Assembly: GCA_050298595.1 (NCBI GenBank)
Contig: JBNKUM010000019.1
Location: 1-48,661, forward strand
From: Gammaproteobacteria bacterium
GTDB lineage: Bacteria; Pseudomonadota; Gammaproteobacteria; GCA-001735895
Reading direction: 5' to 3'
Length of the DNA: 48,661 bases
Below, in pieces: positions 2,333 through 48,661 of this stretch (positions are counted from its first letter, which is position 1; each line of letters opens with the position of its first letter). A program made the translations under genes and the position numbers. Below the pieces are notes generated by a model. That model saw only the letters and a list, made by a program, of their open reading frames with translations, was not told the origin of the DNA and searched no databases.

Positions 2333-2653
2333 TTAATATCCACCTTTACGGGTACTTTGTGGGCAACCACCGATCTTAAGTCCCTGTTTTGAAGGCATTA
2401 ACGGAAACATTTCATACATTTCCTTTGAGCTAACCTTGCGACCCCATAGCTTACCCATTTCTTTCATGATACTGCGTTCGTTGGGCTCATTACCATCCAG
2501 TGTTTGTGCACGAACGTATTTCACAATGTCCCAATGCCCTTCTGTGGGCTCAATGCCTTCTTCTGCAAACAGTTCAATTGCAATCTCTTCATTCCAGTCA
2601 TTGGCGTTAACCAGATAACCATTTTCAGTTCTCTCGACCGACTCAAGTGCCAT
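2333..2653 (-). CDS. TusE/DsrC/DsvC-family protein lacking the canonical C-terminal cysteines (RspA-type)
   Basis: GYLVNANDWNEEIA, HWDIVKYVR and MYEMFP...PSKQ align with DsrC at 19728. C-terminus is GLKIGGCPQSTRKGGY instead of ACKYAGLPKPTGCV. GAGG RBS. Confidence 0.9.
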   Translation of the reverse strand: MALESVERTENGYLVNANDWNEEIAIELFAEEGIEPTEGHWDIVKYVRAQTLDGNEPNERSIMKEMGKLWGRKVSSKEMYEMFPLMPSKQGLKIGGCPQSTRKGGY

Positions 2654-2944: not shown

Positions 2945-3463
2945 ATGGATTCTGAAATTACCCACATCACTAATAAACGGGATCGGTTGATCCTGTTTTC
3001 CACCCTGCTCCTGTTCTGGTTTTTATTAAACGGATCAATGGATCTGGATTTTATTATGGTTGGTGTCATCGTATCTGCAGTGATCAGCCTGCTGTTTTAT
3101 CAGGGGCTATCCTTCTTTACTGAACTGCGATTGACACCCGAAGCTTTTCGTGCCGGATTTCTTTACTATGGCTATTTCTTCAAAGAACTAGTGCTCTCAA
3201 ATCTGAGAATGGCCGCCATCGTACTCTCCCCTTCTCTGCCTATCAAGCCCACCATAGTCAGGGTGAAGACAAGACTGAAAACTCGCATGGGGCGCCTGAT
3301 GCTGGCTAATTCAATCACTCTGACCCCTGGCACCCTGACCGTTAACATGGAGGGTGAGTGGTTATATATCCACTGCGTTTACCTGGACAGCAGTGAGATG
3401 GATACCGCCACTCGTGAGATTGTGGCGGGTTTCGAGTCCTATCTTGAGGTAATGTATGGCTGA
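2945..3463 (+). CDS. mbxA: Mrp-type Na+/H+ antiporter subunit E (MnhE/MrpE); MbxA/MbsA
   Basis: LANSITLTPGTLTV signature, LYIH; first gene of a tightly coupled operon. Confidence 0.93.
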   Translation: MDSEITHITNKRDRLILFSTLLLFWFLLNGSMDLDFIMVGVIVSAVISLLFYQGLSFFTELRLTPEAFRAGFLYYGYFFKELVLSNLRMAAIVLSPSLPIKPTIVRVKTRLKTRMGRLMLANSITLTPGTLTVNMEGEWLYIHCVYLDSSEMDTATREIVAGFESYLEVMYG

Positions 3464-3716
3464 AGCACTCATTTACTTTGCGGCAATACTCAGCGCACTG
3501 GCTTTTCTACTCGCACTGTTACGCTTCATCAAGGGACCAACCCCGGCTGATCGTGTGGTCGCCTTTGATGTACTGACCATCGTTGCCATCACTGGCATTA
3601 TTCTCGTGGCACTCGCCGAAGGGCGTGGTATCTATCTTGATGTGGCGCTGGTTTACGCTCTACTATCTTTCCTCGGGGTTATCGTCATTGCTCGCTATCT
3701 TGAAAAGGGGTTTTAA
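3456..3716 (+). CDS. mbxB: Mrp subunit F (MnhF/MrpF); MbxB
   Basis: RFIKGPTPADRVVAFD and LDVALVYALLSFLG motifs; 3 hydrophobic segments. Confidence 0.93.
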   Translation: MAEALIYFAAILSALAFLLALLRFIKGPTPADRVVAFDVLTIVAITGIILVALAEGRGIYLDVALVYALLSFLGVIVIARYLEKGF

Positions 3717-3719
3717 TCT

Positions 3720-4058
3720 GTGGCAGAGTTAATGGATATTTTCGGCGCATTATTACTGGCCGCAGGATCTTTTTTCCTGTTTCTTGGCAGCCTGGGGCTC
3801 ATGCGCATGCCGGATGTCTTCAATCGCATACAGGCAGGCACCAAATCCACCACGCTGGGGACATTGCTGGTGTTGTTAGGAACCACATTCATTCACCCCG
3901 GATGGGGCTTAAAACTGTTATTGATTGGGGTATTCCTGTTGTTTACTAATCCTTTGTCATCACAGGTACTGGCTAATGCTGCTCATCGCAACAAAACCCG
4001 CCAGAGTGACCTGGTCACCGTAGACCACTTAGCTGAAGATCGGAGTAAAAAAGAATGA
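3720..4058 (+). CDS. mbxC: Mrp subunit G (MnhG/MrpG); MbxC
   Basis: GLMRMPDVFNRIQAGTKSTTLG, TNPLSSQVLANAA. Confidence 0.93.
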   Translation: MAELMDIFGALLLAAGSFFLFLGSLGLMRMPDVFNRIQAGTKSTTLGTLLVLLGTTFIHPGWGLKLLLIGVFLLFTNPLSSQVLANAAHRNKTRQSDLVTVDHLAEDRSKKE

Positions 4059-4312
4059 ATGGTTTATTGCTGGCGATAACTCTGCTGCTTGCGATTACCA
4101 TGGTAATCGCTGCACTGATTTCCATCCATCGAGAAAGAAGCCTGCCTATTTCCATCCTGGCGGCCGGTCTGGTTAGCTTGTTGGCCTCGGTACAGTTCCT
4201 GATACTTGCAGCACCGGATGTGGCCATGACCGAAGCAGCCATCGGCAGTGGCTTAACAACCTTTCTGTTCTTTTTTGTTCTGGGCAAGGTACGCCGGGGT
4301 GAACATGATTAA
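4055..4312 (+). CDS. mbxD: MbhD/DUF4040-like small membrane subunit (MrpA C-terminal-like); MbxD
   Basis: LAAPDVAMTEAAIGSGL motif; ATGA overlap with upstream stop. Confidence 0.9.
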   Translation: MNGLLLAITLLLAITMVIAALISIHRERSLPISILAAGLVSLLASVQFLILAAPDVAMTEAAIGSGLTTFLFFFVLGKVRRGEHD

Positions 4313-5006
4313 ACGATTCACCGTACTGCTGATTATTCTAGGTCTGGGTGCTATCTTTGTTCAAATGCTGATGCAATACCAGCCTGATACAACACTTAAC
4401 CAGAGCGGCCTTTACTATGCCGAAAACTCGACTCAGGAAGTGGGTGCCGCTAACATTGTTACCGCCATCATCGTCACCTATCGCGGTCTGGATACGCTTG
4501 GTGAAGTCACCGTGCTGTTTCTCACCGCAGCCATTGTCGGATTGGTGTTGTCGCATGATTACAAAAAGGCTACCCATCGTGTTGAGAATAGACCCGGTCC
4601 GGGCGAACTTTTAATCACCGGTAGTCAGTTGCTGGCACCACTCATTTTATTGTTCGGTGCCTATATCTTTACCAATGGGCACCTTACCCCAGGCGGTGGC
4701 TTTCAGGGTGGTGCAATCCTCGCTTCTGCAGTGCTGTTGCTCTTGCTAACACGCCCGGTTAAACACTTCAGCCATAGATTGATTACCATGCTCGAATCGA
4801 TTTCCGGGCTGCTGTTCGTGGGTATTGGTCTATTAGGCATAGTCCTGGCCGGCGGCTTTCTGGATAACCGTATCCTGCCTGTCGGTGAACTGGGTGATCT
4901 GTTTTCTGCTGGAACTATCCCGATCATCTATTCTCTCATCGGGCTGAAGGTCGGTGCCGAGTTCAGTTCCATGCTGCTTAAACTGGCTGAAACAGAGGAA
5001 TCCTGA
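4305..5006 (+). CDS. mbxF: Mrp subunit B (MnhB/MrpB)-like; MbxF/MbsE
   Basis: NIVTAIIVTYRGLDTLGE and GHLTPGGGFQGG motifs; ATG at 4305 preferred over TTG at 4275. Confidence 0.92.
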   Translation: MIKRFTVLLIILGLGAIFVQMLMQYQPDTTLNQSGLYYAENSTQEVGAANIVTAIIVTYRGLDTLGEVTVLFLTAAIVGLVLSHDYKKATHRVENRPGPGELLITGSQLLAPLILLFGAYIFTNGHLTPGGGFQGGAILASAVLLLLLTRPVKHFSHRLITMLESISGLLFVGIGLLGIVLAGGFLDNRILPVGELGDLFSAGTIPIIYSLIGLKVGAEFSSMLLKLAETEES

Positions 5007-5362
5007 TGGAATACATTGCCCTTGCAACTGGCTTTATGCTGATCTTGATTGGGCTCTACGGAGCACTGACCAGGAGCAATATCCTGCGCATGATCGTGGC
5101 TTTCGCTATCGCCAATACCGGTGTCAATCTGGTACTGATATCTGTCGGCTATATCCGCGGTCGTAGTGCTCCCATCATCGATAAAACCCTGGCGGCTAGT
5201 GAAGCCGCATCACGTATCATCGATCCTCTGCCACAGGCCCTGGTTCTGACGGCAATTGTCATTGGCGTGGGCATTACTGCATTGATGCTGGCCTATGCCT
5301 ATAAGCTCTATACCATGAAAGGCAGTCTGGATATCTCCAGGATCAGGGAGCTGAAATGGTAG
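5006..5362 (+). CDS. mbxG: Mrp subunit C (MnhC/NuoK-like); MbxG
   Basis: DPLPQALVLTAIVIG signature. Confidence 0.93.
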   Translation: MEYIALATGFMLILIGLYGALTRSNILRMIVAFAIANTGVNLVLISVGYIRGRSAPIIDKTLAASEAASRIIDPLPQALVLTAIVIGVGITALMLAYAYKLYTMKGSLDISRIRELKW

Positions 5363-8300
5363 ACGCACTGAACATCATTACCACCACGCTGGGCGCGGCA
5401 TTTTTGCTCGGATTACTGCGTGATGAGTGGCGCACCACAGCTTATATCATCACCCTGCTGACCCTGGGATTTATTAGCTGGGTATCCGCCAGCTGGTTAT
5501 GGTTGTTTGTCTTTGATCCGCGCCCACCAGTAGAAATCCTGACTGCTGGCAGTCAACCACCTTTTGCCATCAATCTGCGTATGGGCCTGACGGAATCTGT
5601 TGCGCTATTGATAGTCACCGTCACCGGTCTGTTGTCAAGCATTTATCTGCGTGACACCCTGTTCCGATTAGGCAGACGCGCAATGGCGGTATTGCTGGTA
5701 TTTATTATGGCCATGTGCGGCATTATCATGACGCGCGATATCTTTAACCTTTTTGTGTTTCAGGAACTGATCGTAATCGCCACCGGCGGTCTCGTCTTAC
5801 TTTCCAGTAATAAGCTGTCGCTTGGTGCCGGGTTCAAATACCTGATCGCTTCACAGGTAGTTTCCATTCTGTTACTCGTGGGCATTATCTTCAGCTACCA
5901 CAGCACCGGCACCTTAAACATTGATGGTATGGCGGCACAGTCTGAACTGCTGATCAAAACAGCCCCATTGGCGTTTTTCCTGCTTATCATTGCACTCATC
6001 ATCGAACTCAAACCCTTTCCCGCCAACGGCTGGGCACTAGATATTTATGAATCGGCGCATCCAGCCTTTTCTGCCATTCTTTCCGCCGCCACGGGCACTG
6101 CCAGTCTGTTTATGATTGATAAGGTATTAACCATCGGTGGTGATAGCTGGCTACCACTGGCGACCGGTGTCGGTCTGCTCAGTTTCATTGGTGCCAATCT
6201 GTTTGCTTTGGCACAAAACCATGACCGTCGTCTGCTGGGTTATTCTTCCGTGGCTCAGATTGGCCTGCTGCTAACTATCATTGGCCAGCGTGACATTCTG
6301 GGCGAAAGCTACCTGTTCATTGCCGGTGGTATCCTGCTCGCCCATGCGGTAGCCAAAGCAGGGCTGTTCTGGTTATCCGGTTTAATCAACGAACGTGAAC
6401 TGACTGCCTGGACTGCCTTGCGCGGGCGTCCATTACTAATCTTTGCCTTCGTCACTTTCATTGCGCTATTGATCGGTCTGCCACCTTTCCCCGGGTTTTA
6501 CGCGAAATGGGAGCTGGTGCATATCCTGGCCAGTGAAGGGCGTATCGCGCTTATCGTGCTGATCCTGTTTGGTGCTTTACTTGAAACGGCTTACCTGTTT
6601 CGCTGGTTTGGCCTGATCCTCAAACATGAAGAGGTAGCGCCAACTGCTGGCTGCCCACCACAGAAGGTAAGCGTCATCTATAGCGCGGTCCTGCTCGCCT
6701 GGGGGCTGGCTTTCATCTGGGGTGAACTATCCGGTTTTGGTAACCAGCTATCCGCTATTCCTCTGTTATTTGCATTGCTTTTGTTGCCGTTGGAATGGCT
6801 ACCAGCCAAAATCAAGAATCTGCTCGCCATCATCGGTCTGGTGGCCTGGTTTATAGTTCAATTCCCCGCTTACGATGCGCTGCAATTAATCTTCGCAGCC
6901 ATCATCCTGCCCGGTGGTGCACTGATACTATTGTCCAGCTTCCACAACCAGGGGCGCAGACTGGGATTTTACCCGGCCAGCCTGTGGATGTTTGCCGGCC
7001 TGAGTATGTTGATCGTGGCCAAAGATTCATTCAGCTTCTTCGCCGCCTGGGAAACCCTGACCATCGGTTCCTATTTCCTGATTCTGCGTGGCAAGCATTC
7101 ACAACCGCATGCCCTGTCCTACATTATGTTTTCACTGGGCGGTGCCTTTCTAATGATGCTGGGGTTTGCACTGGCTGCACAGGGCAACCCGATATTCCTG
7201 CTCACCTCTCTGACAGATGCACCCAGCGAATTTGCACCGTGGATATTCATCCTGCTGGCGATTGGTTTTATGACTAAAACCGCCTCCATTGGTGTGCACA
7301 TCTGGCTGCCGGGCGCGCATGCAGAGGCGGAGTCTGACGTATCACCGTTGCTCTCCGGTATCCTGCTCAAAGCGGGGCTGTTTGGTCTATTCGTATTATT
7401 GATAAACATGGGTAAACAACAGCTATACGGCGTGGAACTGACTCATGTATTGCTATGGATAGGAGCCCTATCCGCCCTGCTGGGCAATATGATGGCCATC
7501 TATCAGGAAGATGCCAAGCGCCTGCTGGCTTACTCATCAATTGCACAGATGGGTTATGCGCTGTTTGGTCTGGCCCTGATGAACCATCTGGGCTGGTTAA
7601 TGACGCTGATGTTTGTGGTCAATCACTATATCTATAAGTCGATGTTGTTCCTGTCAATTGGTGGTGTTGCCAAGCGTACCGGAACCAAGGAAATGTACCG
7701 TATGGGCGGGTTGATCACACTGATGCCACTATCCTTCATTGCAGTACTGATCGGTATCATTGCGGTTTCTGGTGTGCCTCCACTGTCCGGCTTCGGTGGG
7801 CGCTGGATTTTTTACAACGCCATTATGAGCGCAGAATACCGCCTGCCGATGGTCATCATCTTTCTCGCTGGCCCGATTGCATTTCTATACCTGTTTCGCC
7901 TGATTCACACTGTCTTTCTTGGCCAGCTCAAGGATGAACACCGCAAGCTTAAGGAAGCCCCTTTCTGGATCATCCTGCCGCAGATGATTTACGTGGCGTT
8001 CCTGATGATTTTTGCTCTGGTACCGGGTCTCGCGTTACGCCGGGTGGATGCCTATATCAGCCAGTTTTTCCCGAATAACGGTTTGAACTGGGAAGGGCTT
8101 ACCATCACCAGCGATTTTGGTTACTGGAGTCCTGTATCGATCATGATTATCATCGGAGTGATTTTTGTCACCCTGTTTAGCTGGCTGTTGTTTGTCAATC
8201 GCCGTGCACAAAAGGTTAAGCAGTTCAATATCGTGTATGCGGCCGAAAGACCCTACCGCCCCGAGACCACACACTTTGCCTGGAACTTTTTTGCACCCTA

Positions 8301-8481
8301 CCGTAAGGCACTGGGCTTTATGACCCAGCCCTTCGTTACCCACTTCTGGGATACAGTTGCAGACTCATTTCACACCATGGCCGAATTGTTTCGTCGGCTA
8401 TATACCGGTGATGGTCAGACCTATGCGGTGCAGTTGCTGGCCTTTGTGGTCGCGGTCTATTTTCTAAGCAGTGGGGTGTAA
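5356..8481 (+). CDS. mbxH: Fused double antiporter-like (MrpD/NuoM/N-type) subunit; MbxH-MbxH' fusion
   Basis: 1041 aa with two consecutive proton-conducting transporter domains: RDIFNLFVFQE / RRLLGYSSVAQIG / PPFPGFYAKW, then FFAAWE / HIWLPGAHAEA / KRLLAYSSIAQMGY / GVPPLSGFGGRW. Confidence 0.88.
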   Translation: MVDALNIITTTLGAAFLLGLLRDEWRTTAYIITLLTLGFISWVSASWLWLFVFDPRPPVEILTAGSQPPFAINLRMGLTESVALLIVTVTGLLSSIYLRDTLFRLGRRAMAVLLVFIMAMCGIIMTRDIFNLFVFQELIVIATGGLVLLSSNKLSLGAGFKYLIASQVVSILLLVGIIFSYHSTGTLNIDGMAAQSELLIKTAPLAFFLLIIALIIELKPFPANGWALDIYESAHPAFSAILSAATGTASLFMIDKVLTIGGDSWLPLATGVGLLSFIGANLFALAQNHDRRLLGYSSVAQIGLLLTIIGQRDILGESYLFIAGGILLAHAVAKAGLFWLSGLINERELTAWTALRGRPLLIFAFVTFIALLIGLPPFPGFYAKWELVHILASEGRIALIVLILFGALLETAYLFRWFGLILKHEEVAPTAGCPPQKVSVIYSAVLLAWGLAFIWGELSGFGNQLSAIPLLFALLLLPLEWLPAKIKNLLAIIGLVAWFIVQFPAYDALQLIFAAIILPGGALILLSSFHNQGRRLGFYPASLWMFAGLSMLIVAKDSFSFFAAWETLTIGSYFLILRGKHSQPHALSYIMFSLGGAFLMMLGFALAAQGNPIFLLTSLTDAPSEFAPWIFILLAIGFMTKTASIGVHIWLPGAHAEAESDVSPLLSGILLKAGLFGLFVLLINMGKQQLYGVELTHVLLWIGALSALLGNMMAIYQEDAKRLLAYSSIAQMGYALFGLALMNHLGWLMTLMFVVNHYIYKSMLFLSIGGVAKRTGTKEMYRMGGLITLMPLSFIAVLIGIIAVSGVPPLSGFGGRWIFYNAIMSAEYRLPMVIIFLAGPIAFLYLFRLIHTVFLGQLKDEHRKLKEAPFWIILPQMIYVAFLMIFALVPGLALRRVDAYISQFFPNNGLNWEGLTITSDFGYWSPVSIMIIIGVIFVTLFSWLLFVNRRAQKVKQFNIVYAAERPYRPETTHFAWNFFAPYRKALGFMTQPFVTHFWDTVADSFHTMAELFRRLYTGDGQTYAVQLLAFVVAVYFLSSGV

Positions 8482-8482
8482 G

Positions 8483-9388
8483 ATGAGTTTTGAATGGATC
8501 CAGATACCCTACTCTCTGTTAACCCTGTTTATCGTGGTGAACTATGGTTTTATTCTAAATGCTTTAATCGCCAAGATTGCCGCCCGCGTTGGACGCCGTC
8601 ATGGTATCCCTATCTGGCAGAACTACCTTGACCTGATCAAAAACTATTCTATCCGTAGTTCGATTACCCACGGTGTCATGTTCTATCTAGGGCCTGTGTT
8701 CAGACTTTCCGGAGGCGTTGGCCTGATACTGTTTGTACCGACTATTTACGGTTCGGTGATGTTCTCTAACCTGTCTTTTGCCGGAGATTTGATTCTGGCA
8801 CTTTATTTTGTTTTCTTCGGTACTCTGGGCATGGCACTGGGTGCGGGTGAAAGCGGCCATCCCTTTGCTGCTATCGGCGTTTCGCGTGGACTGGCACAGG
8901 TGACTGCAGCCGAATTGCCGTTTGCACTTGCCATTTTTTCCATCGCGTTACAATACCAGACTCTGTCGATCACCGATATCGTCGCTGCTCAACAGGGCAG
9001 CTACCTTAACTGGACCCTGTTTACCAACCCATTCGCAGTGACTGCAGCGATGCTGTCTTTTCTCGGTTCAATGATGCGGCCACCATTTGACGTAGTACTG
9101 GCGCCACAGGAAATTCCTATCGGACCACCTACCGAATATCACTCGTCATATCTGGCCATGATGCAAACCAATCGCGCAATCTTCCCGATTGCCAAGATGG
9201 TGGTCTACATGAATCTGTTTTTTGGTGGCGCGCTAAGCTGGCCTGTTTTCTTCCTCAAGGTTTTCCTGATCTATATGGTGTCAGTTGTGGTGGGCGTAGT
9301 CTTCCCTCGCTTCCATGTGGAACATTCGATTCGCTGGTTCCTGGTTTGGGCTGTGCCTCTGGGTATCATTGCGATCATGGTGGTGTAA
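8483..9388 (+). CDS. mbxM: Complex I subunit 1 family (NuoH-like); MbxM
   Basis: KIAARVGRRHG, RPPFDVVLAPQEIPIGPPTEY; about 8 hydrophobic segments; ATG at 8483. Confidence 0.9.
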   Translation: MSFEWIQIPYSLLTLFIVVNYGFILNALIAKIAARVGRRHGIPIWQNYLDLIKNYSIRSSITHGVMFYLGPVFRLSGGVGLILFVPTIYGSVMFSNLSFAGDLILALYFVFFGTLGMALGAGESGHPFAAIGVSRGLAQVTAAELPFALAIFSIALQYQTLSITDIVAAQQGSYLNWTLFTNPFAVTAAMLSFLGSMMRPPFDVVLAPQEIPIGPPTEYHSSYLAMMQTNRAIFPIAKMVVYMNLFFGGALSWPVFFLKVFLIYMVSVVVGVVFPRFHVEHSIRWFLVWAVPLGIIAIMVV

Positions 9389-9391
9389 GTA

Positions 9392-10033
9392 ATGAAACAA
9401 GAATTGCAAAAACGAATCGTCAAAGGGCCTGGTGGCGTCGATATAGAGGTTGAACCACTGAAGGATTATTACTGCGAGGCTCCACCTTCGGTCATGCCAG
9501 CAGCCTACAGCCGTATCGTCGAGGATCTGTTTAACTGGGCGCGCTCGGAATCGATCTGGATTCTCGGTTTCGGTACCGGTTGTGGTGCGATTGAAATGCG
9601 CCCGCTGATGACCCCGCGTTTTGATGCCTACCGCTACGGTATTCAGTGGCGCCCAACCCCACGTCAGGCTAATCTGTTCGTAATTTCCGGTTATCTCTCA
9701 GTGAAAACCCTGAAGCGTGCAATCCGTTCCTATGAACAGATGCAAAACCCCAAATACGTGGTTGGCCTCGGTTCCTGCACCATTAATGGCGGCATGTACT
9801 GGGATTCCTACAACACAATCAAACGTCTTGATGACTACCTGCCCGTCGACCTCTATATCACTGGCTGTATGCCAAGACCCGAGGCACTGTTACAGGGTTT
9901 TATGGATTTGAAAAAAATAATCCGTGCAGGCAATGCAGAAGGTGCGAACCAGTATGCGGAGAATTTTGAATGGTACAAGGCAAACCAGAAACGGGTCATC
10001 AAGGATTGGGATATGCCCGATTATAGTTGGTAG
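9392..10033 (+). CDS. mbxJ: NuoB-family Fe-S subunit; MbxJ/MbsJ
   Basis: GTGCGAIEM, GSCTINGGMYWDSYN, GCMPRPEA, ENFEWYKANQ; recognisably Mbx-type; no tandem CC as in NuoB. Confidence 0.9.
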   Translation: MKQELQKRIVKGPGGVDIEVEPLKDYYCEAPPSVMPAAYSRIVEDLFNWARSESIWILGFGTGCGAIEMRPLMTPRFDAYRYGIQWRPTPRQANLFVISGYLSVKTLKRAIRSYEQMQNPKYVVGLGSCTINGGMYWDSYNTIKRLDDYLPVDLYITGCMPRPEALLQGFMDLKKIIRAGNAEGANQYAENFEWYKANQKRVIKDWDMPDYSW

Positions 10034-10038
10034 CAGAT

Positions 10039-10572
10039 ATGCAGGCACTTTACGACAAACTCAAACAACACTACGCGCTGGGTGAATTTATCCAGCAACG
10101 CTCCAACCTGTGCTTCTTCAATGTGCCACGGGAACACCTGTCATCCTTATTGCTTTATCTGCGTGACGTAGAGGGTTATACCCACCTGGTACTGCTGACA
10201 GCAGTAGACTGGATTGAGCAGGACCAGTTCCAGTTGACCTACCTGGTCAACAATCGTCTGGCAGCAACTGATATTGGATTGCGCGTGATCATCGACCGCA
10301 ATCCAGCGAGTATGGAAAGTATCCATCATCTATGGCCGACCGCCGCAACCTATCAGCGCGAATTGAAAGAAATGTTTGGTATCGATTTCCCCGGCAGTCC
10401 TCGTATTGACGAAGACTTTATTCTCGAAGGCTGGCAGGACATTCCGCCTTATCGACGTGACTTTGACACCTTAAAATACAGTGAAGAAACCTATCGCGAC
10501 CGACCGGGCCGGGTTACCCATGATCCGACTCAACACATGAAGCAACAACTTTACCCGGATGCGGAGGACTGA
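10039..10572 (+). CDS. mbxK: NuoC-family subunit; MbxK
   Basis: TAVDW, SIHHLWPTA..YQRELKEMFGIDFPG, PPYRRDF; ATG at 10039. Confidence 0.9.
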   Translation: MQALYDKLKQHYALGEFIQQRSNLCFFNVPREHLSSLLLYLRDVEGYTHLVLLTAVDWIEQDQFQLTYLVNNRLAATDIGLRVIIDRNPASMESIHHLWPTAATYQRELKEMFGIDFPGSPRIDEDFILEGWQDIPPYRRDFDTLKYSEETYRDRPGRVTHDPTQHMKQQLYPDAED

Positions 10573-10573
10573 T

Positions 10574-11752
10574 ATGGCCTATACCCCTGATCGCAGTCAA
10601 TACCCGCAAAAGAAGTCCGATGGCACGCTTGATATCGATCTCACTTCGGGCAAATACCTGAAACTCTGGCAGGGCCCACAGCATCCCGGTATTACCGGCA
10701 ATATGTCGATTGAACTAACCGTGTGTGGTGACGAGGTTGTCGAAGGTATCACCCATGTCGGTTATCTGCACCGCGGCTTCGAAAAACTGATGGAACGACG
10801 CAGTTTTATCCAGTGCTTTCCTATCGTCTGTCGTATCTGCGTACCGGAACCAGATTTCAATGAGTACTGTTATGCCGCTGCGGTTGAGGAACTGGCGGAT
10901 GTAGAAGTACCCGAACGCGCCAACTGGATCCGCACACTGATCCTGGAGATGGGTCGTATCAACAGTTATCTGATGTATCTGGGTGGTCAATCCGGAGCTC
11001 TGGGTCAGGCGGTAATAGGCCAGTGGGCAACCTATGTACGCGACCTGATGCTGGACCGCTTCGAAGAACTTACCGGAGCCCGTATCTATCACATGTTCAT
11101 CATACCTGGTGGGGTACGCGACGACCTGCCCGTTGGCTTTAAAAAGCGCATGAAAGATACCCTGAAGGAGATTGAAAAAACAATGCAGGATATCTACAAC
11201 GTGATGTTCTGCAATGCGGTCTTCCACAAAAGAACTGTAGGTGTTGGAGTAATAGAAAACCGTTGGCTGGATCGCTACGGTGTTAGCGGCCCCTGCATAC
11301 GTGCGGCCGGTGTGGCGCGTGATGTGCGTAAAGACCAGCCTTATCTGGTTTACCAGCATCTCGACTTTGACCCCGTTATCGGTCACAACTCCGATATTTA
11401 CACCCGAGCAGATGTACGCCGTCGCGACCTGCTGATGTCGGTCGACCTGATCCGACAGATTCTGTCACGCATGCCGGAGCGTAAGGAAGCCATGATGGCG
11501 ACTATTCCTAACGTATTGCACTGGAAGATCCCGCCGGGTGAAACCTATGTGCGAGGTGAATGTTCTCGTGGTGAGTACGGTTATTATCTGGTCACCGATG
11601 GAAGCGGTTATCCGCGACGAGTCAATGTACGAGGCCCCTCCTACACCCATGCGATGGCATTGTTTGAACGCATGGTAGTGAATTGCAATATCGCCGATGT
11701 TGCGGCACTACTGGTGTCTCTACATACCTATCCACCGGAGATCGAACGTTAA
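10574..11752 (+). CDS. mbxL: NuoD-family subunit; MbxL/MbsL (no NiFe site)
   Basis: GPQHPG, GYLHRGFEKL, RICVPE, ECSRGE, VRGPSY, C-terminal HTYPPEIER; GGAGG RBS before ATG at 10574. Confidence 0.9.
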   Translation: MAYTPDRSQYPQKKSDGTLDIDLTSGKYLKLWQGPQHPGITGNMSIELTVCGDEVVEGITHVGYLHRGFEKLMERRSFIQCFPIVCRICVPEPDFNEYCYAAAVEELADVEVPERANWIRTLILEMGRINSYLMYLGGQSGALGQAVIGQWATYVRDLMLDRFEELTGARIYHMFIIPGGVRDDLPVGFKKRMKDTLKEIEKTMQDIYNVMFCNAVFHKRTVGVGVIENRWLDRYGVSGPCIRAAGVARDVRKDQPYLVYQHLDFDPVIGHNSDIYTRADVRRRDLLMSVDLIRQILSRMPERKEAMMATIPNVLHWKIPPGETYVRGECSRGEYGYYLVTDGSGYPRRVNVRGPSYTHAMALFERMVVNCNIADVAALLVSLHTYPPEIER

Positions 11753-11764
11753 GAGCCTGATGCC

Positions 11765-13570
11765 ATGAGTATTCGTAATATCCTTTCTCCATTCACTGCC
11801 TGGAAAAACCTGTTCCGCGACCCAGTCAGTATCGCTGATCCATTTAATGATCGCCCTGGCAGTATGCGCTATCGGGGCTTCCACCAGAACGACATGGATA
11901 AGTGCATAGGCTGTGGCACCTGTGAAGCGATTTGTCAGAATGCCGCTATCGACATGGTTCCAGTCGAAGGCATACAAACCACTAAGGAAGATTCCGGATT
12001 ACGCCCGCATATAGATTACGGTCGCTGTTGCTGGTGTGCGCTGTGCGTGGATATCTGTATGACCGGTTCGCTGACCATGTCCAACGAATACAAATGGATC
12101 GAAAGTGACCCCGACAAGTTTCGCTTCACCCCGGGTGTCGACAAAAAATTCTGGGATCACTCAGCACTCGGTTATCACCGCCCCGAAGGTCATCAGTTAA
12201 GCGGTCGGGTTCGGGTCGAGATGGAAGAAATGGATCCGGAGCAACGGCTCGATTCCTTTGCTGAAATCGTTAAGGGCTACGATGTCGAACAGGCCAAAGC
12301 CGAAGCCGATCGTTGCGTAGCCTGCGGCCTGTGCGTGGCCACCTGCCCTATCCACATGGCGATACCCGATTATATTGCTGCGGTTCGTGCAGGAGACTAT
12401 GAGGAAGGACTACGCCTGTTGTACGACAGTAATCCGTTTTCCCAGGTTTGTGGCCGAGTCTGTACACGCAAGTGCGAAACCTCCTGTGCCGCACGTCATG
12501 AGGGTGATCCAATTGCCATCCGCTGGCTCAAACGTCATATCACCGAGCAGGTGCCTTATGACCGTTATAGAACCATAGTGGGTGAACCCGCCGAAGCGAC
12601 AGGCCGAAAAGTAGCAATCATCGGTGCCGGACCGGCAGGACTAACGACTGCTTTCGACCTTGCTAAAAAGGGCCATAGCGTGACAGTATTTGAATCACGA
12701 AAAAAACCGGGGGGCATGATGCGCTATGGTATCCCTGAATATCGCCTGCCCTATGATCGTCTGGATGCTGATATTAATATGATTCTGTCGTATGGAGTCG
12801 AATTAAAACTCAATACTCAAATCGGTAAAGATATCAGTATGGAGGAGCTTCATAAGCAGTTTGATGCGGTATTACTCGCCAGCGGTCTACATCAGGGACG
12901 ATCCACACGCATACCTGGATCTGAACATTCTAAAACCGTATCAGCCATTGAGCTGTTAAGAAAAATCACCGACAAGTCCCGCTTCGCTGTTCCCCAAAAA
13001 GCAGTGGTCATAGGTGGTGGTAATGTGGCCATGGATATAGCACGCAGCCTGGCCAGATTACAGAAAAAGAAATATGGTGAAATACATGTCACGGTAACGG
13101 CTCTGGAAGATGAGCATCATATGCTCGCAGACGAGGATGAAATACGTGAGGCCAAAGAAGAAGGCTTAACAATTTTACCTGGACGTGGACCGCGCCAGTG
13201 CATCATCGAGAATAAAAAATTAACCGGCCTGGAAACGGTATGCTGTACCTCGATTTTTGATGAAGAAGGGCGCTTTCACCCCACTTATGATGAATCCGAT
13301 ATCTGCATACATGACGTTGACATGGTGGTTGAAGCGATTGGCCAGGCTGCTGACGTCACCTATCTGGGTTATGAAGTAACCGAAGCGCTTGACTGGAATC
13401 GCGGAAGACTGGTCATAGACAGCAACGGTCAAACTGCCGAACCCTGGCTATGGGCCGCTGGAGATATGGTCGAAGGACCAGATGTGGTTCATGCCATAGC
13501 TGCTGGCCATAGAGCCGCCGAGAGCATCCATGCAAGCCTGACAGTAAGTGCGGAGAGATCAAAAGAATGA
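11765..13570 (+). CDS. MbxN/NuoI-type 2x[4Fe-4S] domain fused to a GltD/SudA/DsrL-like FAD-dependent NAD(P)H oxidoreductase
   Basis: RYRGFH, CIGCGTCEAIC, CCWCALCVDIC (NuoI part); then RCVACGLCVATCP, CGRVCTRKCETSC, IIGAGPAG, GGMMRYGIPEYRLP, VIGGGNVAMD, AAGDMV. Confidence 0.9.
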   Translation: MSIRNILSPFTAWKNLFRDPVSIADPFNDRPGSMRYRGFHQNDMDKCIGCGTCEAICQNAAIDMVPVEGIQTTKEDSGLRPHIDYGRCCWCALCVDICMTGSLTMSNEYKWIESDPDKFRFTPGVDKKFWDHSALGYHRPEGHQLSGRVRVEMEEMDPEQRLDSFAEIVKGYDVEQAKAEADRCVACGLCVATCPIHMAIPDYIAAVRAGDYEEGLRLLYDSNPFSQVCGRVCTRKCETSCAARHEGDPIAIRWLKRHITEQVPYDRYRTIVGEPAEATGRKVAIIGAGPAGLTTAFDLAKKGHSVTVFESRKKPGGMMRYGIPEYRLPYDRLDADINMILSYGVELKLNTQIGKDISMEELHKQFDAVLLASGLHQGRSTRIPGSEHSKTVSAIELLRKITDKSRFAVPQKAVVIGGGNVAMDIARSLARLQKKKYGEIHVTVTALEDEHHMLADEDEIREAKEEGLTILPGRGPRQCIIENKKLTGLETVCCTSIFDEEGRFHPTYDESDICIHDVDMVVEAIGQAADVTYLGYEVTEALDWNRGRLVIDSNGQTAEPWLWAAGDMVEGPDVVHAIAAGHRAAESIHASLTVSAERSKE

Positions 13571-14082
13571 GCAAAAAACACAGTTCTGAAGGCAGTAAAG
13601 GCTACGCCAAACTGAAAAAAAAGCAGACGATTGAAGAGATACTTGAAACCGCCATTGGCTTTGAGAGAACGGCGCGTGATTTCTATAGCGAATTATGTGA
13701 CACTGTAAGCAAACCTATACGTGGCTTGATTCAGGAGTTGGCTGATGAAGAAGCTGAGCATTACCGACTGTTTACTGAATTAAAAGAAAGAGCAGATATC
13801 CAACAGCATATCAGCGATAAAATCCAGACACCACCTAATGACCACCGCTTTAGCGACTATCTGAAGCAACCCGACCTGGGCAAGGATCCGAGCGATCAGG
13901 ATATTTTGCTGTATGCTCTGGGGCGTGAACAGGCTGCGATGGAACAGTACTCTGCACTAGCCGAAGAGACACCTGCTGGAGCTATAGCTGATCTATTTCA
14001 GTACCTGGCTCATGAAGAACTTGAACATAAAAATGAGCTTGAAAAGCTCTATTATGAAATGATTCATAAAGGAGGTGTATAA
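13567..14082 (+). CDS. Ferritin-like / rubrerythrin-family di-iron protein
   Basis: AIGFE...FY...LADEEAEH and ALGRE...Y...LAHEELEH duplicated E/ExxH pattern; ATGA overlap with upstream gene. Confidence 0.85.
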   Translation: MSKKHSSEGSKGYAKLKKKQTIEEILETAIGFERTARDFYSELCDTVSKPIRGLIQELADEEAEHYRLFTELKERADIQQHISDKIQTPPNDHRFSDYLKQPDLGKDPSDQDILLYALGREQAAMEQYSALAEETPAGAIADLFQYLAHEELEHKNELEKLYYEMIHKGGV

Positions 14083-14120: not shown

Positions 14121-14810
14121 TTATTGCTGTTTTTTATTCACCGCATCTATTCCCTTATGCGGAATAAAGATACCTATTCCCATCAATTGCCTATCACCCA
14201 TTCCCTGTTCCTGTAGCATTAACGATTGAGCCACATCCAGATCACTCACCATGAGTTTTCGGGTTAATACGATGCCACTGGAGGTCTGGTGCGAGAGTAA
14301 CTTACCACTCATCATTTTTTTAACCTGTATCCCCATCTCACGTAACTGTTGCGCCATATTATTTAAAAATAGCGTTTCATCCTCTGTGCCCTCGGTATCC
14401 ATATAGCGTGCAAACAGGGTTGTAAGTCGGCTGAGTTTGCGGGTACGAAAGTCACCGATCTTCAGCGCATGGCCGTGGATATCGAGTGTTTTACCGGTTA
14501 GTGCCCGGGCATCTTCGAGACGACTTTGAGGTAGTCGAATCATCAATTTTGTGCGCCTGGATACGCAGAGCACATCCTGCTCTGGATCATCTGGGCGCAT
14601 CCACCCATGAGCGGATTCGGCAACATGGATTTGATGGATAGCTGCCAGTGGTTCGTCGCCAATCCAGGGAAGGTATTGCTGAATTTGTTGGGATAAAACG
14701 AAGCCATGATCCAGCGGTAATGTTTTGCACTCTATGGAGAACAGCAAATCCTGAACATCTTCATGAAGCTGCTCTGTATCATTATTATCATCATCGTCCT
14801 GCCAATACAT
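14121..14810 (-). CDS. cas6: Cas6-family RAMP endoribonuclease-like protein (Cmx6 / type I-MYXAN-like), orphan
   Basis: LPLDHG, SRRTKLMIRLP, LTGKTLDI and C-terminal Gly-rich loop LQEQGMGDRQLMGIGIFIP (GhGxxxxhGhG); ATG at 14810, 2 nt after the upstream stop. Confidence 0.82.
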   Translation of the reverse strand: MYWQDDDDNNDTEQLHEDVQDLLFSIECKTLPLDHGFVLSQQIQQYLPWIGDEPLAAIHQIHVAESAHGWMRPDDPEQDVLCVSRRTKLMIRLPQSRLEDARALTGKTLDIHGHALKIGDFRTRKLSRLTTLFARYMDTEGTEDETLFLNNMAQQLREMGIQVKKMMSGKLLSHQTSSGIVLTRKLMVSDLDVAQSLMLQEQGMGDRQLMGIGIFIPHKGIDAVNKKQQ

Positions 14811-14812
14811 GT

Positions 14813-15001
14813 TCAACACACCGATGTGAATGTCGCTTCCAGTCGATCTTCCCAGTCAGGCGGGGTATCTGAGTATGGAGGTTTTATATCCATACGAAAA
14901 AATCGTTCACCCGCTGCTGCTCGTCTGGATATCTCTTCCTTTAAATCCTCAAATGATTCCATTTCAGGGTTTTGTAATAAAATTTCGCTTAACCACAGCA
15001 T
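14813..15001 (-). CDS. Small acidic protein (62 aa) between tauD-like and cas6 genes
   Basis: MLWLSEILLQ...FRMDIKPPYSDTPPDWEDRLE; GAGG RBS; tightly packed with neighbours. Confidence 0.8.
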   Translation of the reverse strand: MLWLSEILLQNPEMESFEDLKEEISRRAAAGERFFRMDIKPPYSDTPPDWEDRLEATFTSVC

Positions 15002-19727: not shown

Positions 19728-20060
19728 ATGCCTTTAGAAGTGAATGGTAAGAGTTACGAAACTGATGAAGAAGGTTACCTGGCTAACCTGAATGAGTGGA
19801 ACGAAGAAGTTGCTGCAGCATTAGCTGCTGCTGATGATGCAGAACTGACTTCAAGCCATTGGGAAGTCATTAACTTCCTGCGTGAATACTACGAAGAGTA
19901 TCAAATTGCTCCTGCAGTACGCGTTTTAACCAAAGCCATTGGTAAAAAACTGGGTAAAGACAAAGGAAACAGCAAGTACCTGTACGAACTGTTCCCTTAC
20001 GGCCCAGCAAAGCAAGCCTGTAAATACGCTGGCTTGCCTAAGCCTACTGGTTGCGTGTAA
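19728..20060 (+). CDS. dsrC: DsrC sulfur carrier with both C-terminal cysteines
   Basis: LFPYGPAKQACKYAGLPKPTGCV. Confidence 0.98.
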   Translation: MPLEVNGKSYETDEEGYLANLNEWNEEVAAALAAADDAELTSSHWEVINFLREYYEEYQIAPAVRVLTKAIGKKLGKDKGNSKYLYELFPYGPAKQACKYAGLPKPTGCV

Positions 20061-38233: not shown

Positions 38234-38284
38234 GATATAACTCTTTGTCAGGTCAACTTTCCAGATAAGTGGAGGTGCTAATTA

Positions 38285-41097: not shown

Positions 41098-41109
41098 AAA
41101 GATAGTCCT

Positions 41110-45537: not shown

Positions 45538-45590
45538 TTTATTCCTAAAAAATTATGTCGATATACTATAGTTATCCTGATACACGACTA

Positions 45591-47373: not shown

Positions 47374-47613
47374 ATTATGAAATTTTAAATTAATAATATT
47401 TTCAAATTAATTTTTTAAAAATATTTGTGTTGATATAAATACATAAAAATCGACAAAGTGTATATAAAGATTTCTAAGCACTTTACTATATAAGTACCAT
47501 GAAAACAGGATTAATATCTAACTATTAACAAACAATATTCCTATTAATCTTCCATCCTTTTCAAATTTCCATAATATTGTTAACTTTATTAATGAATTTG
47601 ATGAAAATATGAT

Positions 47614-48660: not shown

Positions 48661-48661
48661 A

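What the first reader, a model, noticed from the sequence alone, without database searches (positions are those of the whole stretch)
2945..14082. MBS/Mbx-type (sulfane reductase-like) ion-translocating complex in a sulfur oxidiser, next to the rDsr operon
Seen: a translationally coupled operon in the order MrpE,F,G, MbhD-like, MrpB, C, antiporter x2, NuoH-, B-, C-, D-, I-like, with no NuoA/E/F/G and no NiFe motifs. Established: this is the mbxABCDFGHH'MJKLN order of the Thermococcales membrane-bound sulfane reductase (MBS), which reduces polysulfide using ferredoxin. Inference: here it lies about 2 kb from dsrA and divergent from a DsrC-like gene in an organism that probably stores sulfur. 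It may be an NAD(P)H:sulfane-sulfur oxidoreductase, used either for anoxic respiration or reductive mobilisation of stored S0, or run in reverse for ion-gradient-driven NAD(P)+ reduction. I know of no biochemical characterisation of such a complex in sulfur-oxidising Gammaproteobacteria.
Basis: partly seen in the sequence, partly recalled or inferred. Interest (0 to 1): 0.92.

Follow-up and report, generated by a model that had tools for sequence, protein, structure and literature searches.

The report
NAD(P)H-linked MBS-type sulfur reductase operon
A sulfur-oxidising bacterium carries a 13-gene membrane complex closely related to the archaeal sulfur-reducing respiratory enzyme MBS, rewired to use NAD(P)H; this operon type is already described in the literature, but its chemistry has never been measured.

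Summary
The operon at 2945-14082 is real. It holds 13 tightly coupled genes colinear with Thermococcales mbsABCDEGHH'MJKLN. Every subunit I tested (H, H', M, J, L, N) matches the solved MBS complex (6U8Y) far better than complex I or the MBH hydrogenase. The catalytic pocket looks like MBS: only three cysteines for the proximal [4Fe-4S] cluster, no quinone ligands and no NiFe site.

H and H' are fused (1041 aa). "NuoI-like" is a 601-aa fusion to an NfnB/GltD-type NAD(P)H flavoprotein. A conserved diiron ferritin-like gene closes the operon.

It is a rare, patchy accessory module with raised GC: 4 of 399 other class genomes and 3 of 13 congeners carry it. Adjacency to dsr is not conserved (0 of 12 loci). 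However, 10 of 13 other carriers also have DsrA, against 31% background.

Best reading: an ion-translocating NAD(P)H:sulfane-sulfur oxidoreductase whose direction is open. It is a new member of a known but uncharacterised kind.

The parts
2945..3463 (+). Subunit A (MrpE-like)
   Evidence: Pfam MNHE 4.3e-36. First gene of the colinear cassette in 18 related loci.
3456..3716 (+). Subunit B (MrpF-like)
   Evidence: Pfam MrpF_PhaF 3.6e-18.
3720..4058 (+). Subunit C (MrpG-like)
   Evidence: Pfam PhaG_MnhG_YufB 5.8e-24. NCBIfam NF009314 at 112 bits, over its cut-off of 102.
4055..4312 (+). Subunit D (MbhD-like)
   Evidence: Pfam MbhD 2.5e-16.
4275..5006 (+). Subunit E (MbhE + MnhB domains). The TTG start is uncertain.
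   Evidence: Pfam MnhB 5.9e-25 and MbhE 1.9e-09.
5006..5362 (+). Subunit G (MrpC/NuoK-like)
   Evidence: Pfam Oxidored_q2 2.4e-22.
5356..8481 (+). Fused H-H' double antiporter-like subunit, 1041 aa
   Evidence: Two Proton_antipo_M stretches. Residues 8-260 best match 6u8y_H (7e-40). Residues 447-1032 best match 6u8y_X, MbsH' (1.1e-51). It appears as a single HSP in the related loci.
8471..9388 (+). Subunit M (NuoH-like membrane anchor of the peripheral arm)
   Evidence: Best solved match is 6u8y_M at 1.6e-37. The next is formate hydrogenlyase subunit 4 at 1.6e-11.
9392..10033 (+). Subunit J (NuoB-like). It carries the proximal [4Fe-4S] cluster with only three Cys: C64, C129, C159.
   Evidence: 6u8y_J at 4.9e-65 in an ungapped alignment (41-204 to 5-168), against NdhK at 2.8e-38 and MbhJ at 2.3e-24. 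The motif GFGTGCGAIEM holds a single Cys in 22 of 22 loci.
10027..10572 (+). Subunit K (NuoC-like)
   Evidence: Pfam Complex1_30kDa 1.3e-23.
10559..11752 (+). Subunit L (NuoD/NiFe-large-subunit-like, with no NiFe site and no quinone ligands)
   Evidence: 6u8y_L at 4.1e-96 (325 bits), against Nqo4 at 8.1e-63 and MbhL at 6.8e-39. RICVPEPD is identical to MbsL. Nqo4 H38 and Y87 align to T46 and V95. MbsL C385 aligns to Tyr. Tree placement.
11765..13570 (+). Subunit N fused to an NfnB/GltD-type FAD/NAD(P)H flavoprotein, 601 aa, with four [4Fe-4S] motifs in all
   Evidence: Residues 6-110 match 6u8y_N (6.4e-21). Residues about 150-595 match NfnB/GltD-type chains (4ylf_B 4.6e-71, 5jca_L 1.4e-66). 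Pfam Fer4_20 + Pyr_redox_2. NCBIfam PRK13984 at 886.5 bits, under its cut-off of 946. Invariant Cys motifs and GAGPAG / GGGNVAMD in 16 of 16 aligned sequences.
13567..14082 (+). Ferritin-like diiron (erythrin-type, COG1633-like) protein without a rubredoxin domain. Probable 14th polypeptide, or accessory to the flavoprotein.
   Evidence: Pfam Rubrerythrin 3.9e-14. E33, E62, H65, E121, E151 and H154 are invariant in 13 of 13 sequences. It follows N in 21 of 21 loci that reach past N, often with a 4-nt overlap. Nearest solved relatives are 1vjx (TM1526) and 2fzf. The complex prediction with the GltD part gave weak support: score 0.60, best control 0.00.
2333..2653 (-). Divergent DsrC-like gene. 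Context only; probably not part of the system.
   Evidence: Pfam DsrC 2e-23. 40% identical to the true DsrC at 19728-20060, but lacks both conserved C-terminal cysteines. Syntenic only in L005.

Best explanation
This is a bacterial member of the Mrp-Mbx/MBS family of complex-I-like respiratory enzymes.

Shown:
- It has 13 colinear subunits.
- The catalytic pocket formed by L, J and M keeps the MBS features: three-Cys proximal [4Fe-4S], no quinone ligands, no NiFe site.
- The ferredoxin-docking subunit N is fused to an NfnB/GltD-type FAD/NAD(P)H module.

Inferred:
- Electrons run NAD(P)H -> FAD -> two GltD-type [4Fe-4S] -> two N-type [4Fe-4S] -> the site-differentiated proximal cluster in J. 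There sulfane sulfur (polysulfide, S8-derived or organic persulfide) is reduced to sulfide.
- This chemistry drives H+/Na+ translocation through the fused H-H' pumps and the Mrp module.
- The NAD(P)H/sulfane span is small, so the enzyme should work near equilibrium and be reversible.
- In this rDsr sulfur oxidiser, the likeliest role is anoxic disposal of reducing equivalents onto zero-valent sulfur, conserving a little energy.
- The diiron protein probably sits on the flavoprotein domain and protects it, or the open cluster, from O2/H2O2.
- The cassette is a horizontally acquired accessory module, not part of the Dsr pathway.
For: Architecture and family:
- Searches give gene order and domains.
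- Searches show 6U8Y subunits as the best solved match for L (325 vs 216 bits for Nqo4 and 137 for MbhL), J (223 vs 135), M (133 vs 48), H, H' and the N-terminal part of N.

Signature residues:
- J aligns to MbsJ without gaps and has one Cys where MbsJ has C25/C28. With C129 and C159 that leaves three ligands.
- This is the feature the MBS paper (PMC7684303, passages) ties to catalysis at a non-cysteinyl Fe. It holds in 22 of 22 loci.
- L lacks the Nqo4 H38/Y87 equivalents, as MbsL does.

Tree:
- Query, 10 locus sequences and P0124 form a 100% SH-aLRT clade.
- That clade is sister to P0126+P0129, whose best solved match is also MbsL.
- It lies apart from the clade holding the NuoD rows labelled by NCBIfam (97) and from FpoD (100).

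NAD(P)H module.

Sulfur link:
- T. maritima mbxA rose 4.36-fold after S0 addition (PMC9431562, passages). PMC4758237 groups the Thermotoga operon with the proteobacterial gltD-containing type.
- In the Riftia symbiont, a putative Mrp-Mbx complex shares co-expression neighbours with the rTCA cycle, as do the sulfur-globule protein genes (PMC11636981, passages).
- DsrA was found in 10 of 13 other carriers, against 123 of 400 in the class sample.
- Anoxic respiration of stored sulfur is documented in a chemolithoautotrophic Beggiatoa, with no enzyme named in the abstract (PMC3253548, abstract).

Accessory, acquired nature: distribution; GC 0.501 vs 0.451, top 2.9% of 2201 windows.
Against: - No activity, expression or knockout datum exists for any proteobacterial member. 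My literature searches found none, and no RNA run holds this DNA.
- With textbook potentials (recalled: NAD(P)H about -320 mV, polysulfide/HS- about -260 to -270 mV), the forward reaction yields only about 10 kJ per 2 e-. That is less than one ion against a normal membrane potential. Yet the full two-pump membrane arm is kept, which fits the reverse direction at least as well.
- The cassette also occurs in genomes where DsrA was not found (Celeribacter sp. HF31, a Cloacimonadota MAG) and in iron oxidisers and magnetotactic bacteria (source names). Sulfur is therefore not proven to be the common substrate.
- MbsL C385 is Tyr in all 22 bacterial sequences, and a new Cys (C91) appears. The pocket is not identical to MBS.
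- The co-occurrence with dsr rests on few, partly related genomes. The carriers were found by likeness to this sulfur oxidiser's protein.
- MbsL itself could not be put in the tree.
Confidence: 0.55

Rival explanations
1. Same enzyme, opposite physiological direction. The ion gradient drives oxidation of sulfide or a persulfide carrier at the open proximal cluster and reduction of NAD(P)+ at the flavoprotein. This would give lithoautotrophs a cheap route to NAD(P)H that bypasses reverse electron flow through bc1 and complex I.
For: - The small NAD(P)H/sulfane span (recalled potentials) is set against a full H-H' + Mrp membrane arm.
- The host is an autotroph with RuBisCO and rDsr.
- Close homologues of the fused N subunit (67-70% identity over at least 98% of its length) are named from Gallionella, Sideroxyarcus, Nitrosomonadales, Thiohalocapsa, Magnetovirga and Magnetospira. 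I recall the first three as lithoautotrophs; no call tested this.
- 10 of 13 other carriers have DsrA.
Against: - The host already has canonical complex I with NuoF. Most congeners manage without the cassette: it was not found in 10 of 13.
- The cassette also occurs in Celeribacter and Aliiruegeria (which I recall as heterotrophs) and in a Cloacimonadota MAG.
- T. maritima mbxA is induced by S0 as an electron acceptor.
- In the Riftia symbiont, most sulfur-oxidation genes are co-expressed with the CBB cycle, whereas the Mbx genes cluster with rTCA.
Confidence: 0.2
2. An ion-translocating NAD(P)H oxidoreductase whose acceptor is not sulfur. It could be an unidentified hydrophobic or soluble compound, or O2/H2O2 through the diiron protein. 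The MBS-like pocket would then be inherited but repurposed.
For: - The diiron protein is strictly conserved and coupled to the flavoprotein: present in 21 of 21 loci, with weak complex support (0.60 vs 0.00).
- NCBIfam PRK12775 fuses a GltD-type domain to a ferritin domain.
- Some carriers lack a detectable DsrA.
- MbsL C385 is replaced, and a new conserved Cys (C91) gives a CxxC next to the pocket.
Against: - J is ungapped against MbsJ, and the pocket motifs are invariant across Pseudomonadota and Cloacimonadota. This argues for conserved chemistry.
- A peroxidase function would not need a 12-subunit ion pump.
- Thermotoga mbxA responds to S0.
Confidence: 0.15
3. A ferredoxin:NAD(P)+ oxidoreductase that pumps ions. 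This is the pre-2018 view of Mbx, kept in PMC4758237.
For: PMC4758237 (passages) reads the gltD-like subunit as the NAD(P)+ reduction site of such an enzyme. The N-terminal NuoI/MbsN-like part, which docks ferredoxin in MBS, is retained.
Against: - Electrons passing from ferredoxin at N to the flavin on the same polypeptide would never reach the proximal cluster at the L/J/M pocket. [quoted passage not shown] The conserved pocket would then be pointless.
- The genome already has three RnfC-type genes over the family cut-off.
Confidence: 0.05
4. A simplified NAD(P)H:quinone oxidoreductase, that is, a complex I variant.
For: Generic NuoB/C/D/H/I family hits. NF004739 'NuoD' scores 394 bits on L, over its cut-off.
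Against: - The quinone head-group ligands (Nqo4 H38, Y87) are T and V.
- J lacks the tandem-Cys N2 motif of complex I.
- L lies outside the NuoD clade that holds the genome's own NuoD.
- TIGR01962 NuoD scores 293 bits, under its cut-off of 459.
Confidence: 0.03

Closest known systems
MBS (membrane-bound sulfane reductase, formerly Mbx) of Pyrococcus furiosus, PDB 6U8Y
   Same: - Colinear 13-subunit order A-B-C-D-E-G-H-H'-M-J-K-L-N.
- Best solved match for every subunit tested.
- Three-Cys proximal cluster motif with the same loop length.
- RICVPEPD in L.
- No quinone ligands and no NiFe site.
   Different: - N is fused to an NfnB/GltD-type NAD(P)H flavoprotein instead of taking electrons from free ferredoxin.
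- H and H' are fused.
- There is an extra diiron protein.
- MbsL C385 is Tyr, MbsJ C25 is Gly, and a new Cys sits three residues before the C85 equivalent.
- The host is a non-thermophilic, autotrophic sulfur oxidiser (my inference from its habitat metagenomes and gene content).
[quoted passage not shown]
   Same: This is exactly the described type: a gltD-related flavoprotein at the NuoI position, an operon that ends with a rubrerythrin-type gene, and vestigial Cys in the NuoD homologue.
   Different: - No Thermotoga sequence was compared here.
- That paper assumed a ferredoxin:NAD(P)+ function, and it predates the discovery that Mbx reduces sulfane sulfur.
- The present copy sits in an rDsr sulfur oxidiser.
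Putative Mrp-Mbx complex of Candidatus Endoriftia persephone (PMC11636981)
   Same: An Mbx-type complex in a sulfur-oxidising gammaproteobacterium. Relatives of the present cassette occur in Sedimenticola/Sedimenticolaceae records, a family I recall as including that symbiont.
   Different: I did not see the symbiont's sequence, so identity of type is inferred. That work gives co-expression only and lists the function and direction as unknown.
MBH, the group 4 membrane-bound [NiFe] hydrogenase (PDB 6CFW)
   Same: Mrp module plus peripheral J-K-L-N arm.
   Different: - Much weaker matches: L 137 bits, J 90 bits.
- All four NiFe cysteines are needed there; here one at most is kept.
- MBH has one antiporter-like pump instead of two.
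Respiratory complex I / NDH-1
   Same: Homologous B, C, D, H, I, K and antiporter-like subunits. An NAD(P)H-oxidising flavoprotein sits at the tip of the arm, by analogy.
   Different: - No NuoE/F/G; the flavoprotein is GltD/NfnB-type with FAD.
- No quinone ligands and no tandem-Cys N2 motif.
- The genome has its own complete NuoD/NuoF elsewhere.
NfnB / GltD / DsrL family of iron-sulfur flavoproteins
   Same: Residues about 150-600 of N carry Fer4_20 + Pyr_redox_2. The best solved matches include NfnB (4ylf_B) and NfnI (5jca_L). DsrL in the same window (22611-24566) has the same domain pair.
   Different: Here the domain is fused to a NuoI-type di-cluster domain and wired into a membrane complex. 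No NfnA-type partner is encoded in the operon.

Membership tests
MBS/Mbx (Thermococcales membrane-bound sulfane reductase) | Gene order mbsABCDEGHH'MJKLN with an integrated Mrp module and two antiporter-like pumps | tested here: met
   The order is colinear; H and H' are fused in one ORF.
MBS/Mbx (Thermococcales membrane-bound sulfane reductase) | Proximal [4Fe-4S] of J ligated by three Cys only, on a shortened loop (PMC7684303) | tested here: met
   At sequence level only. The alignment to MbsJ is ungapped. The first motif holds one Cys (the MbsJ C25 equivalent is Gly), plus C129 and C159. This holds in 22 of 22 loci. Coordination itself was not observed.
MBS/Mbx (Thermococcales membrane-bound sulfane reductase) | L subunit without a NiFe site and without the quinone ligands Nqo4 H38/Y87 | tested here: met
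   T46 and V95 at those positions, and RICVPEPD identical to MbsL.
MBS/Mbx (Thermococcales membrane-bound sulfane reductase) | Two vestigial NiFe cysteines retained in L (C85 and C385) | tested here: not met
   The C85 equivalent is kept (C94; 20 of 21 loci). The C385 equivalent is Tyr in 22 of 22. The C85A/C385A mutant of MBS kept wild-type activity, so this feature is not catalytic.
MBS/Mbx (Thermococcales membrane-bound sulfane reductase) | Reduced ferredoxin as donor through a free-standing N subunit | tested here: not met
   N is fused to an NfnB/GltD-type NAD(P)H flavoprotein.
MBS/Mbx (Thermococcales membrane-bound sulfane reductase) | L groups with MbsL rather than NuoD, FpoD or hydrogenases | tested here: inconclusive
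   The query scores 325 bits against 6u8y_L, 216 against Nqo4 and 137 against MbhL. The tree puts the clade apart from NuoD and FpoD, next to two representatives whose best solved match is MbsL. MbsL and MbhL themselves were not in the tree, which was a quick search with SH-aLRT support only.
MBS/Mbx (Thermococcales membrane-bound sulfane reductase) | Polysulfide/DMTS reductase activity coupled to ion translocation | not testable with these tools
   Needs biochemistry.
[quoted passage not shown] | gltD-related flavoprotein in place of NuoI, and an operon that ends with a rubrerythrin-type gene | tested here: met
   checked against the description read.
Respiratory complex I (NuoA-N) | NuoE/F/G input module, quinone ligands in NuoD, tandem-Cys N2 motif in NuoB | tested here: not met
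   TIGR01962 scores 293 bits against a cut-off of 459.
Group 4 [NiFe] hydrogenase (MBH/Ech/Hyf) | Four Cys ligands of the NiFe centre in the large subunit | tested here: not met
   Pfam NiFeSe_Hases scores only 17.9 bits, under its cut-off.

The most novel reading that the evidence does not exclude
The complex runs backwards in lithoautotrophs. The proton or sodium gradient pulls electrons from sulfide or a cytoplasmic persulfide, through the open-site [4Fe-4S] cluster, to NAD(P)+. Sulfur oxidisers that carry it, and possibly iron oxidisers too, would then make NAD(P)H for CO2 fixation at a fraction of the cost of classical reverse electron transport. A bolder variant: the NfnB-type flavin bifurcates, with the diiron protein as the high-potential branch.
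Probability: 0.17. Interest if true: 0.85.

Novelty: new member of a known kind. Interest (0 to 1): 0.5.

Why it matters
If the NAD(P)H:sulfane reaction is confirmed, it would name the missing enzyme for anoxic respiration of zero-valent sulfur by sulfur-oxidising bacteria. That physiology was documented in Beggiatoa without an enzyme named in the abstract (PMC3253548). It would also show that the iron-sulfur-cluster mechanism of sulfur reduction, so far known only from hyperthermophilic archaea, works in bacteria of non-thermal sediments.

If the enzyme runs in reverse, it would change the energy budget assumed for chemolithoautotrophy.

The cassette is compact, self-contained and present in cultured, non-pathogenic bacteria: Celeribacter, Aliiruegeria lutimaris DSM 25294 and Thiohalocapsa marina. 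The question is therefore directly testable.

Tried and rejected
- Expression: the look-up of sequencing runs listed 12 DNA holders from 4 studies and no RNA holder.
- Synteny as evidence for a Dsr link: rejected. Of 128 flank ORFs found I scanned 55. The neighbours varied: sucrose-phosphate synthase, CBS + CitMHS transporter, ParA-like, MFS and others. Only one locus (L019) had a rhodanese.
- The DsrC-like neighbour as a substrate carrier: rejected, because both DsrC cysteines are missing.
- A promoter/terminator scan gave fewer promoter-like sites than shuffles. It found only a weak site at 2849-2876, which is not used as evidence.
- A tree with MbsL and MbhL themselves could not be built, because the solved-structure sequences are not held as usable proteins. 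Three representatives were anchored by their best solved match instead. The careful tree search did not finish in 300 s, so the quick tree is reported.
- Organism identity: DsrA relatives carry only 'MAG: Gammaproteobacteria / Thiotrichales / Chromatiales' names.
- Literature searches 'Mbx + Beggiatoa' (0 papers) and searches found no biochemical study of a proteobacterial Mbx-like complex.
- The Hyf-like six-gene cluster discussed in PMC4053972 is a different complex, like the one on contig C56.
- Supplementary files of the papers were not available. The Riftia paper's expression tables might show how its Mbx genes respond to sulfide or oxygen.

Full report
**What is there**

Thirteen ORFs on the + strand fill 2945-14082. 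At every junction the genes overlap or are at most 12 nt apart. Pfam and NCBIfam read them in this order:

- MrpE, MrpF, MrpG, MbhD-like, MbhE+MnhB, and MrpC/NuoK-like.
- One 1041-aa protein with two antiporter-like modules.
- NuoH-, NuoB-, NuoC- and NuoD-like proteins.
- A 601-aa protein whose first ~120 residues are NuoI-like. The rest is Fer4_20 + Pyr_redox_2, that is, NfnB/GltD-type (NCBIfam PRK13984 at 886.5 bits, just under its cut-off of 946).
- A 171-aa ferritin/rubrerythrin-like protein.

No NuoA/E/F/G domain is present.

**Which family**

I compared six subunits with all solved structures. The P. furiosus MBS complex (6U8Y) is the best match each time, by a wide margin.

| Subunit | Best match (6U8Y) | Next matches |
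|---|---|---|
| L | 4.1e-96 | Nqo4 8.1e-63; MbhL 6.8e-39 |
| J | 4.9e-65 | NdhK 2.8e-38; MbhJ 2.3e-24 |
| M | 1.6e-37 | 1.6e-11 |
| Fused protein, N-terminal half | MbsH | |
| Fused protein, C-terminal half | MbsH' | |
| N, residues 6-110 | MbsN 6.4e-21 | |

The MBS structure paper (PMC7684303, passages read) defines the catalytic site by three features:

- a proximal [4Fe-4S] cluster held by only three cysteines on a shortened loop of MbsJ;
- absence of the quinone ligands Nqo4 H38 and Y87;
- two vestigial NiFe cysteines (C85, C385) that are not needed for activity.

Here J aligns to MbsJ without a gap. It has GFGTGCGAIEM, a single Cys where MbsJ has C25 and C28, plus C129 and C159. L has RICVPEPD identical to MbsL, with T46 and V95 at the quinone-ligand positions. 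The C385 equivalent is Tyr.

Across related loci these residues are fixed:

- single-Cys J motif in 22 of 22;
- VCR[IV]CVPEPD in 20 of 21 (one has Ala for the second Cys);
- a Tyr-containing C-terminus in 22 of 22.

The bacterial clade also has a new Cys (C91) three residues before the C85 equivalent, where MbsL has Leu.

**Tree**

From a search of 1.84 billion representatives (8321 hits at E<=1e-3), I took 50 of the 130 full-length (>=340 aa) sequences among the best 150. To these I added 10 locus sequences, the query, the genome's own NuoD and its C56 NuoCD-like protein, making 63 rows. Fragments were dropped and long N-terminal fusions trimmed. Labels came from NCBIfam.

The quick IQ-TREE tree (the careful search did not finish) shows the following:

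- The query, all 10 locus sequences and P0124 form one clade (SH-aLRT 100, stem 0.95).
- That clade is sister (87) to P0126+P0129.
- It lies apart from a NuoD clade (97) that holds the genome's own NuoD, and apart from FpoD (100).
- P0124, P0126 and P0129 each have MbsL as their best solved match (273, 363 and 347 bits).

MbsL and MbhL themselves could not be included, so I call this test inconclusive in the strict sense.

**The input module and the last gene**

Residues ~150-600 of N match NfnB (4ylf_B, 4.6e-71), NfnI (5jca_L) and glutamate synthase small chains. The alignment of 16 homologues keeps four [4Fe-4S] cysteine motifs, plus GAGPAG and GGGNVAMD dinucleotide motifs. A wire NAD(P)H -> FAD -> 4 clusters -> proximal cluster is the natural reading; it is inferred, not shown.

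The last protein keeps all six diiron ligands (E33, E62, H65, E121, E151, H154) in 13 of 13 sequences. Its nearest solved relatives are the ferritin-like diiron proteins 1vjx (TM1526) and 2fzf. It follows N in 21 of 21 loci that extend past N, often with a 4-nt overlap.

A complex prediction of the GltD part with this protein gave weak support:

- score 0.60, best of 3 controls 0.00;
- the tool's calibration: the mark was reached by 58 of 80 solved complexes and 2 of 110 mismatched pairs, but scores of 0.60 or under by only 7 of those 80 solved complexes and by both mismatches that passed;
- runs agree in at least 86% of contacts, and partner pLDDT is at least 76.

NCBIfam PRK12775 describes a protein that fuses a GltD-type and a ferritin domain, which fits an association.

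**Already known?**

Yes, as a gene-cluster type. [quoted passage not shown] That paper assumed a ferredoxin:NAD(P)+ function.

The Riftia symbiont study (PMC11636981, passages) lists a putative Mrp-Mbx complex in a sulfur-oxidising gammaproteobacterium. It is co-expressed with the rTCA cycle, and its function and direction are marked unknown.

In T. maritima, mbxA of a 13-subunit MBX rose 4.36-fold with S0 (PMC9431562, passages).

My searches found no biochemical work on a proteobacterial member.

**Distribution and context**

Close full-length homologues of the fused N subunit (67-95% identity) number more than 100. Source names include Gallionella, Sideroxyarcus, Nitrosomonadales, Thiohalocapsa marina, Magnetovirga, Magnetospira, Azonexus and Rhodobacterales.

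A scan of species genomes returned 24 loci: Sedimenticola/Sedimenticolaceae, Chromatiales and other gammaproteobacterial MAGs, four named Celeribacter records, two Aliiruegeria, and one Cloacimonadota. The whole cassette is colinear wherever the contig allows.

It is nevertheless rare:

- 5 of 400 scored genomes of the class sample including the window's own, with one genome not scored;
- 3 of 13 other species of the same genus, and 0 of 11 in the rest of the family;
- by contrast, DsrA is in 20 of 24 family genomes.

Operon GC is 0.501 against a genome mean of 0.451. That places it in the top 2.9% of 2201 windows of equal size. GC3 is 0.40-0.60, against 0.32-0.46 for the dsr genes. I read this as an acquired accessory module.

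**Link to Dsr**

Position gives no support:

- dsrA/B is absent from 0 of 12 loci with 10 kb of downstream DNA.
- The DsrC-like, cas6 and TauD-like neighbours recur only in the 97%-identical MAG.
- Flanks differ from locus to locus (55 of 128 flank ORFs scanned).
- The DsrC-like protein lacks both DsrC cysteines.

Co-occurrence gives some support:

- All 4 other carriers in the class sample have DsrA, and so do 4 of 6 carriers reached through loci. It was not found in Celeribacter sp. HF31 or the Cloacimonadota MAG.
- 2 of 3 same-genus carriers have it.
- In total that is 10 of 13, against 123 of 400 in the class sample.

The numbers are small, the genomes are partly related, and the carriers were found by likeness to this organism's protein. 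This is a lead, not a test.

**Mechanism and direction**

The conserved pocket argues that the chemistry at the proximal cluster is that of MBS: reduction of sulfane sulfur. With NAD(P)H as partner the standard span is only ~50-60 mV (recalled potentials). That is far less than the ferredoxin-driven 42 kJ per 2 e- quoted for MBS (PMC8165549, passage). The reaction should therefore be near equilibrium.

Forward operation would be disposal of NAD(P)H onto S0 under anoxia with slight energy gain. It fits the Thermotoga induction, the Riftia co-expression pattern, the presence in Celeribacter/Aliiruegeria and a Cloacimonadota MAG, and the documented anoxic sulfur respiration of Beggiatoa (PMC3253548, abstract).

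Reverse operation would be gradient-driven NAD(P)+ reduction by sulfide. It fits the full two-pump arm and the lithoautotrophic hosts.

The host also has:

- canonical complex I;
- three RnfC-type genes;
- RuBisCO;
- several [NiFe] hydrogenases;
- a separate Hyf-like module.

It is therefore metabolically versatile, and neither direction is excluded.

**Verdict**

The dsr-neighbourhood argument is not supported, although genome-level co-occurrence is suggestive. This is a new member of an already described but biochemically untouched kind. It is of moderate interest and directly testable.

Noticed in passing
window 14121-14819 (-) and 15035-15916 (-): A lone cas6 gene (Pfam Cas6 1.8e-56) and a TauD/TfdA-family dioxygenase gene lie between the mbx-like operon and dsrA, on the opposite strand. 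No other cas gene turned up among the ORFs I scanned in the window.
   Followed up: no
window 2333-2653 (-): A DsrC-like protein is 40% identical to the true DsrC (19728-20060). It lacks both conserved C-terminal cysteines and has one Cys at a non-canonical position (ends GGCPQSTRKGGY).
   Followed up: partly
window 10559-11752, residues C91 and C94 of L: The bacterial clade has a CxxC (VCRIC) next to the catalytic pocket where MbsL has LRIC. C91 is present in 21 of 21 loci and C94 in 20 of 21. A possible redox-active pair, unexplained.
   Followed up: partly
G000 contig C56:29652-33665 (locus L002): A second complex-I-like module: HyfF-like antiporter subunit, a 516-aa NuoC-NuoD-like fusion and a NuoB-like gene. 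It resembles the Hyf-like six-gene cluster discussed in PMC4053972.
   Followed up: partly
G000 contigs C75, C84, C98; C1, C30, C100, C101: There are three RnfC-type genes over the family cut-off and at least four [NiFe]-hydrogenase large-subunit genes. One of these (C101) lies next to a NuoF-like gene. That is a large set of redox modules for one genome.
   Followed up: no
genome of locus L020 (Aliiruegeria lutimaris DSM 25294), G426:C71:80531-81763: A named Roseobacteraceae isolate carries both the mbx-like cassette and a DsrA homologue (66% identity to the window's DsrA). I did not expect this for that family.
   Followed up: no
locus L025 (uncultured Gammaproteobacteria MAG), 3400-11800: The cassette looks broken or badly assembled. 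H-H' gave no long match, and M, L and N match only in part.
   Followed up: no
window 35603-48661: A low-GC stretch (0.35-0.40) holds exosortase (EpsH), carbamoyltransferase, acetyltransferase and lipid-related genes on the - strand, with strongly negative GC skew.
   Followed up: no
window 22611-24566 (dsrL) versus 11765-13570: DsrL and the flavoprotein part of subunit N share the same Fer4_20 + Pyr_redox_2 architecture. The window thus holds two NfnB/GltD-type NAD(P)H iron-sulfur flavoproteins wired to two different sulfur enzymes.
   Followed up: no
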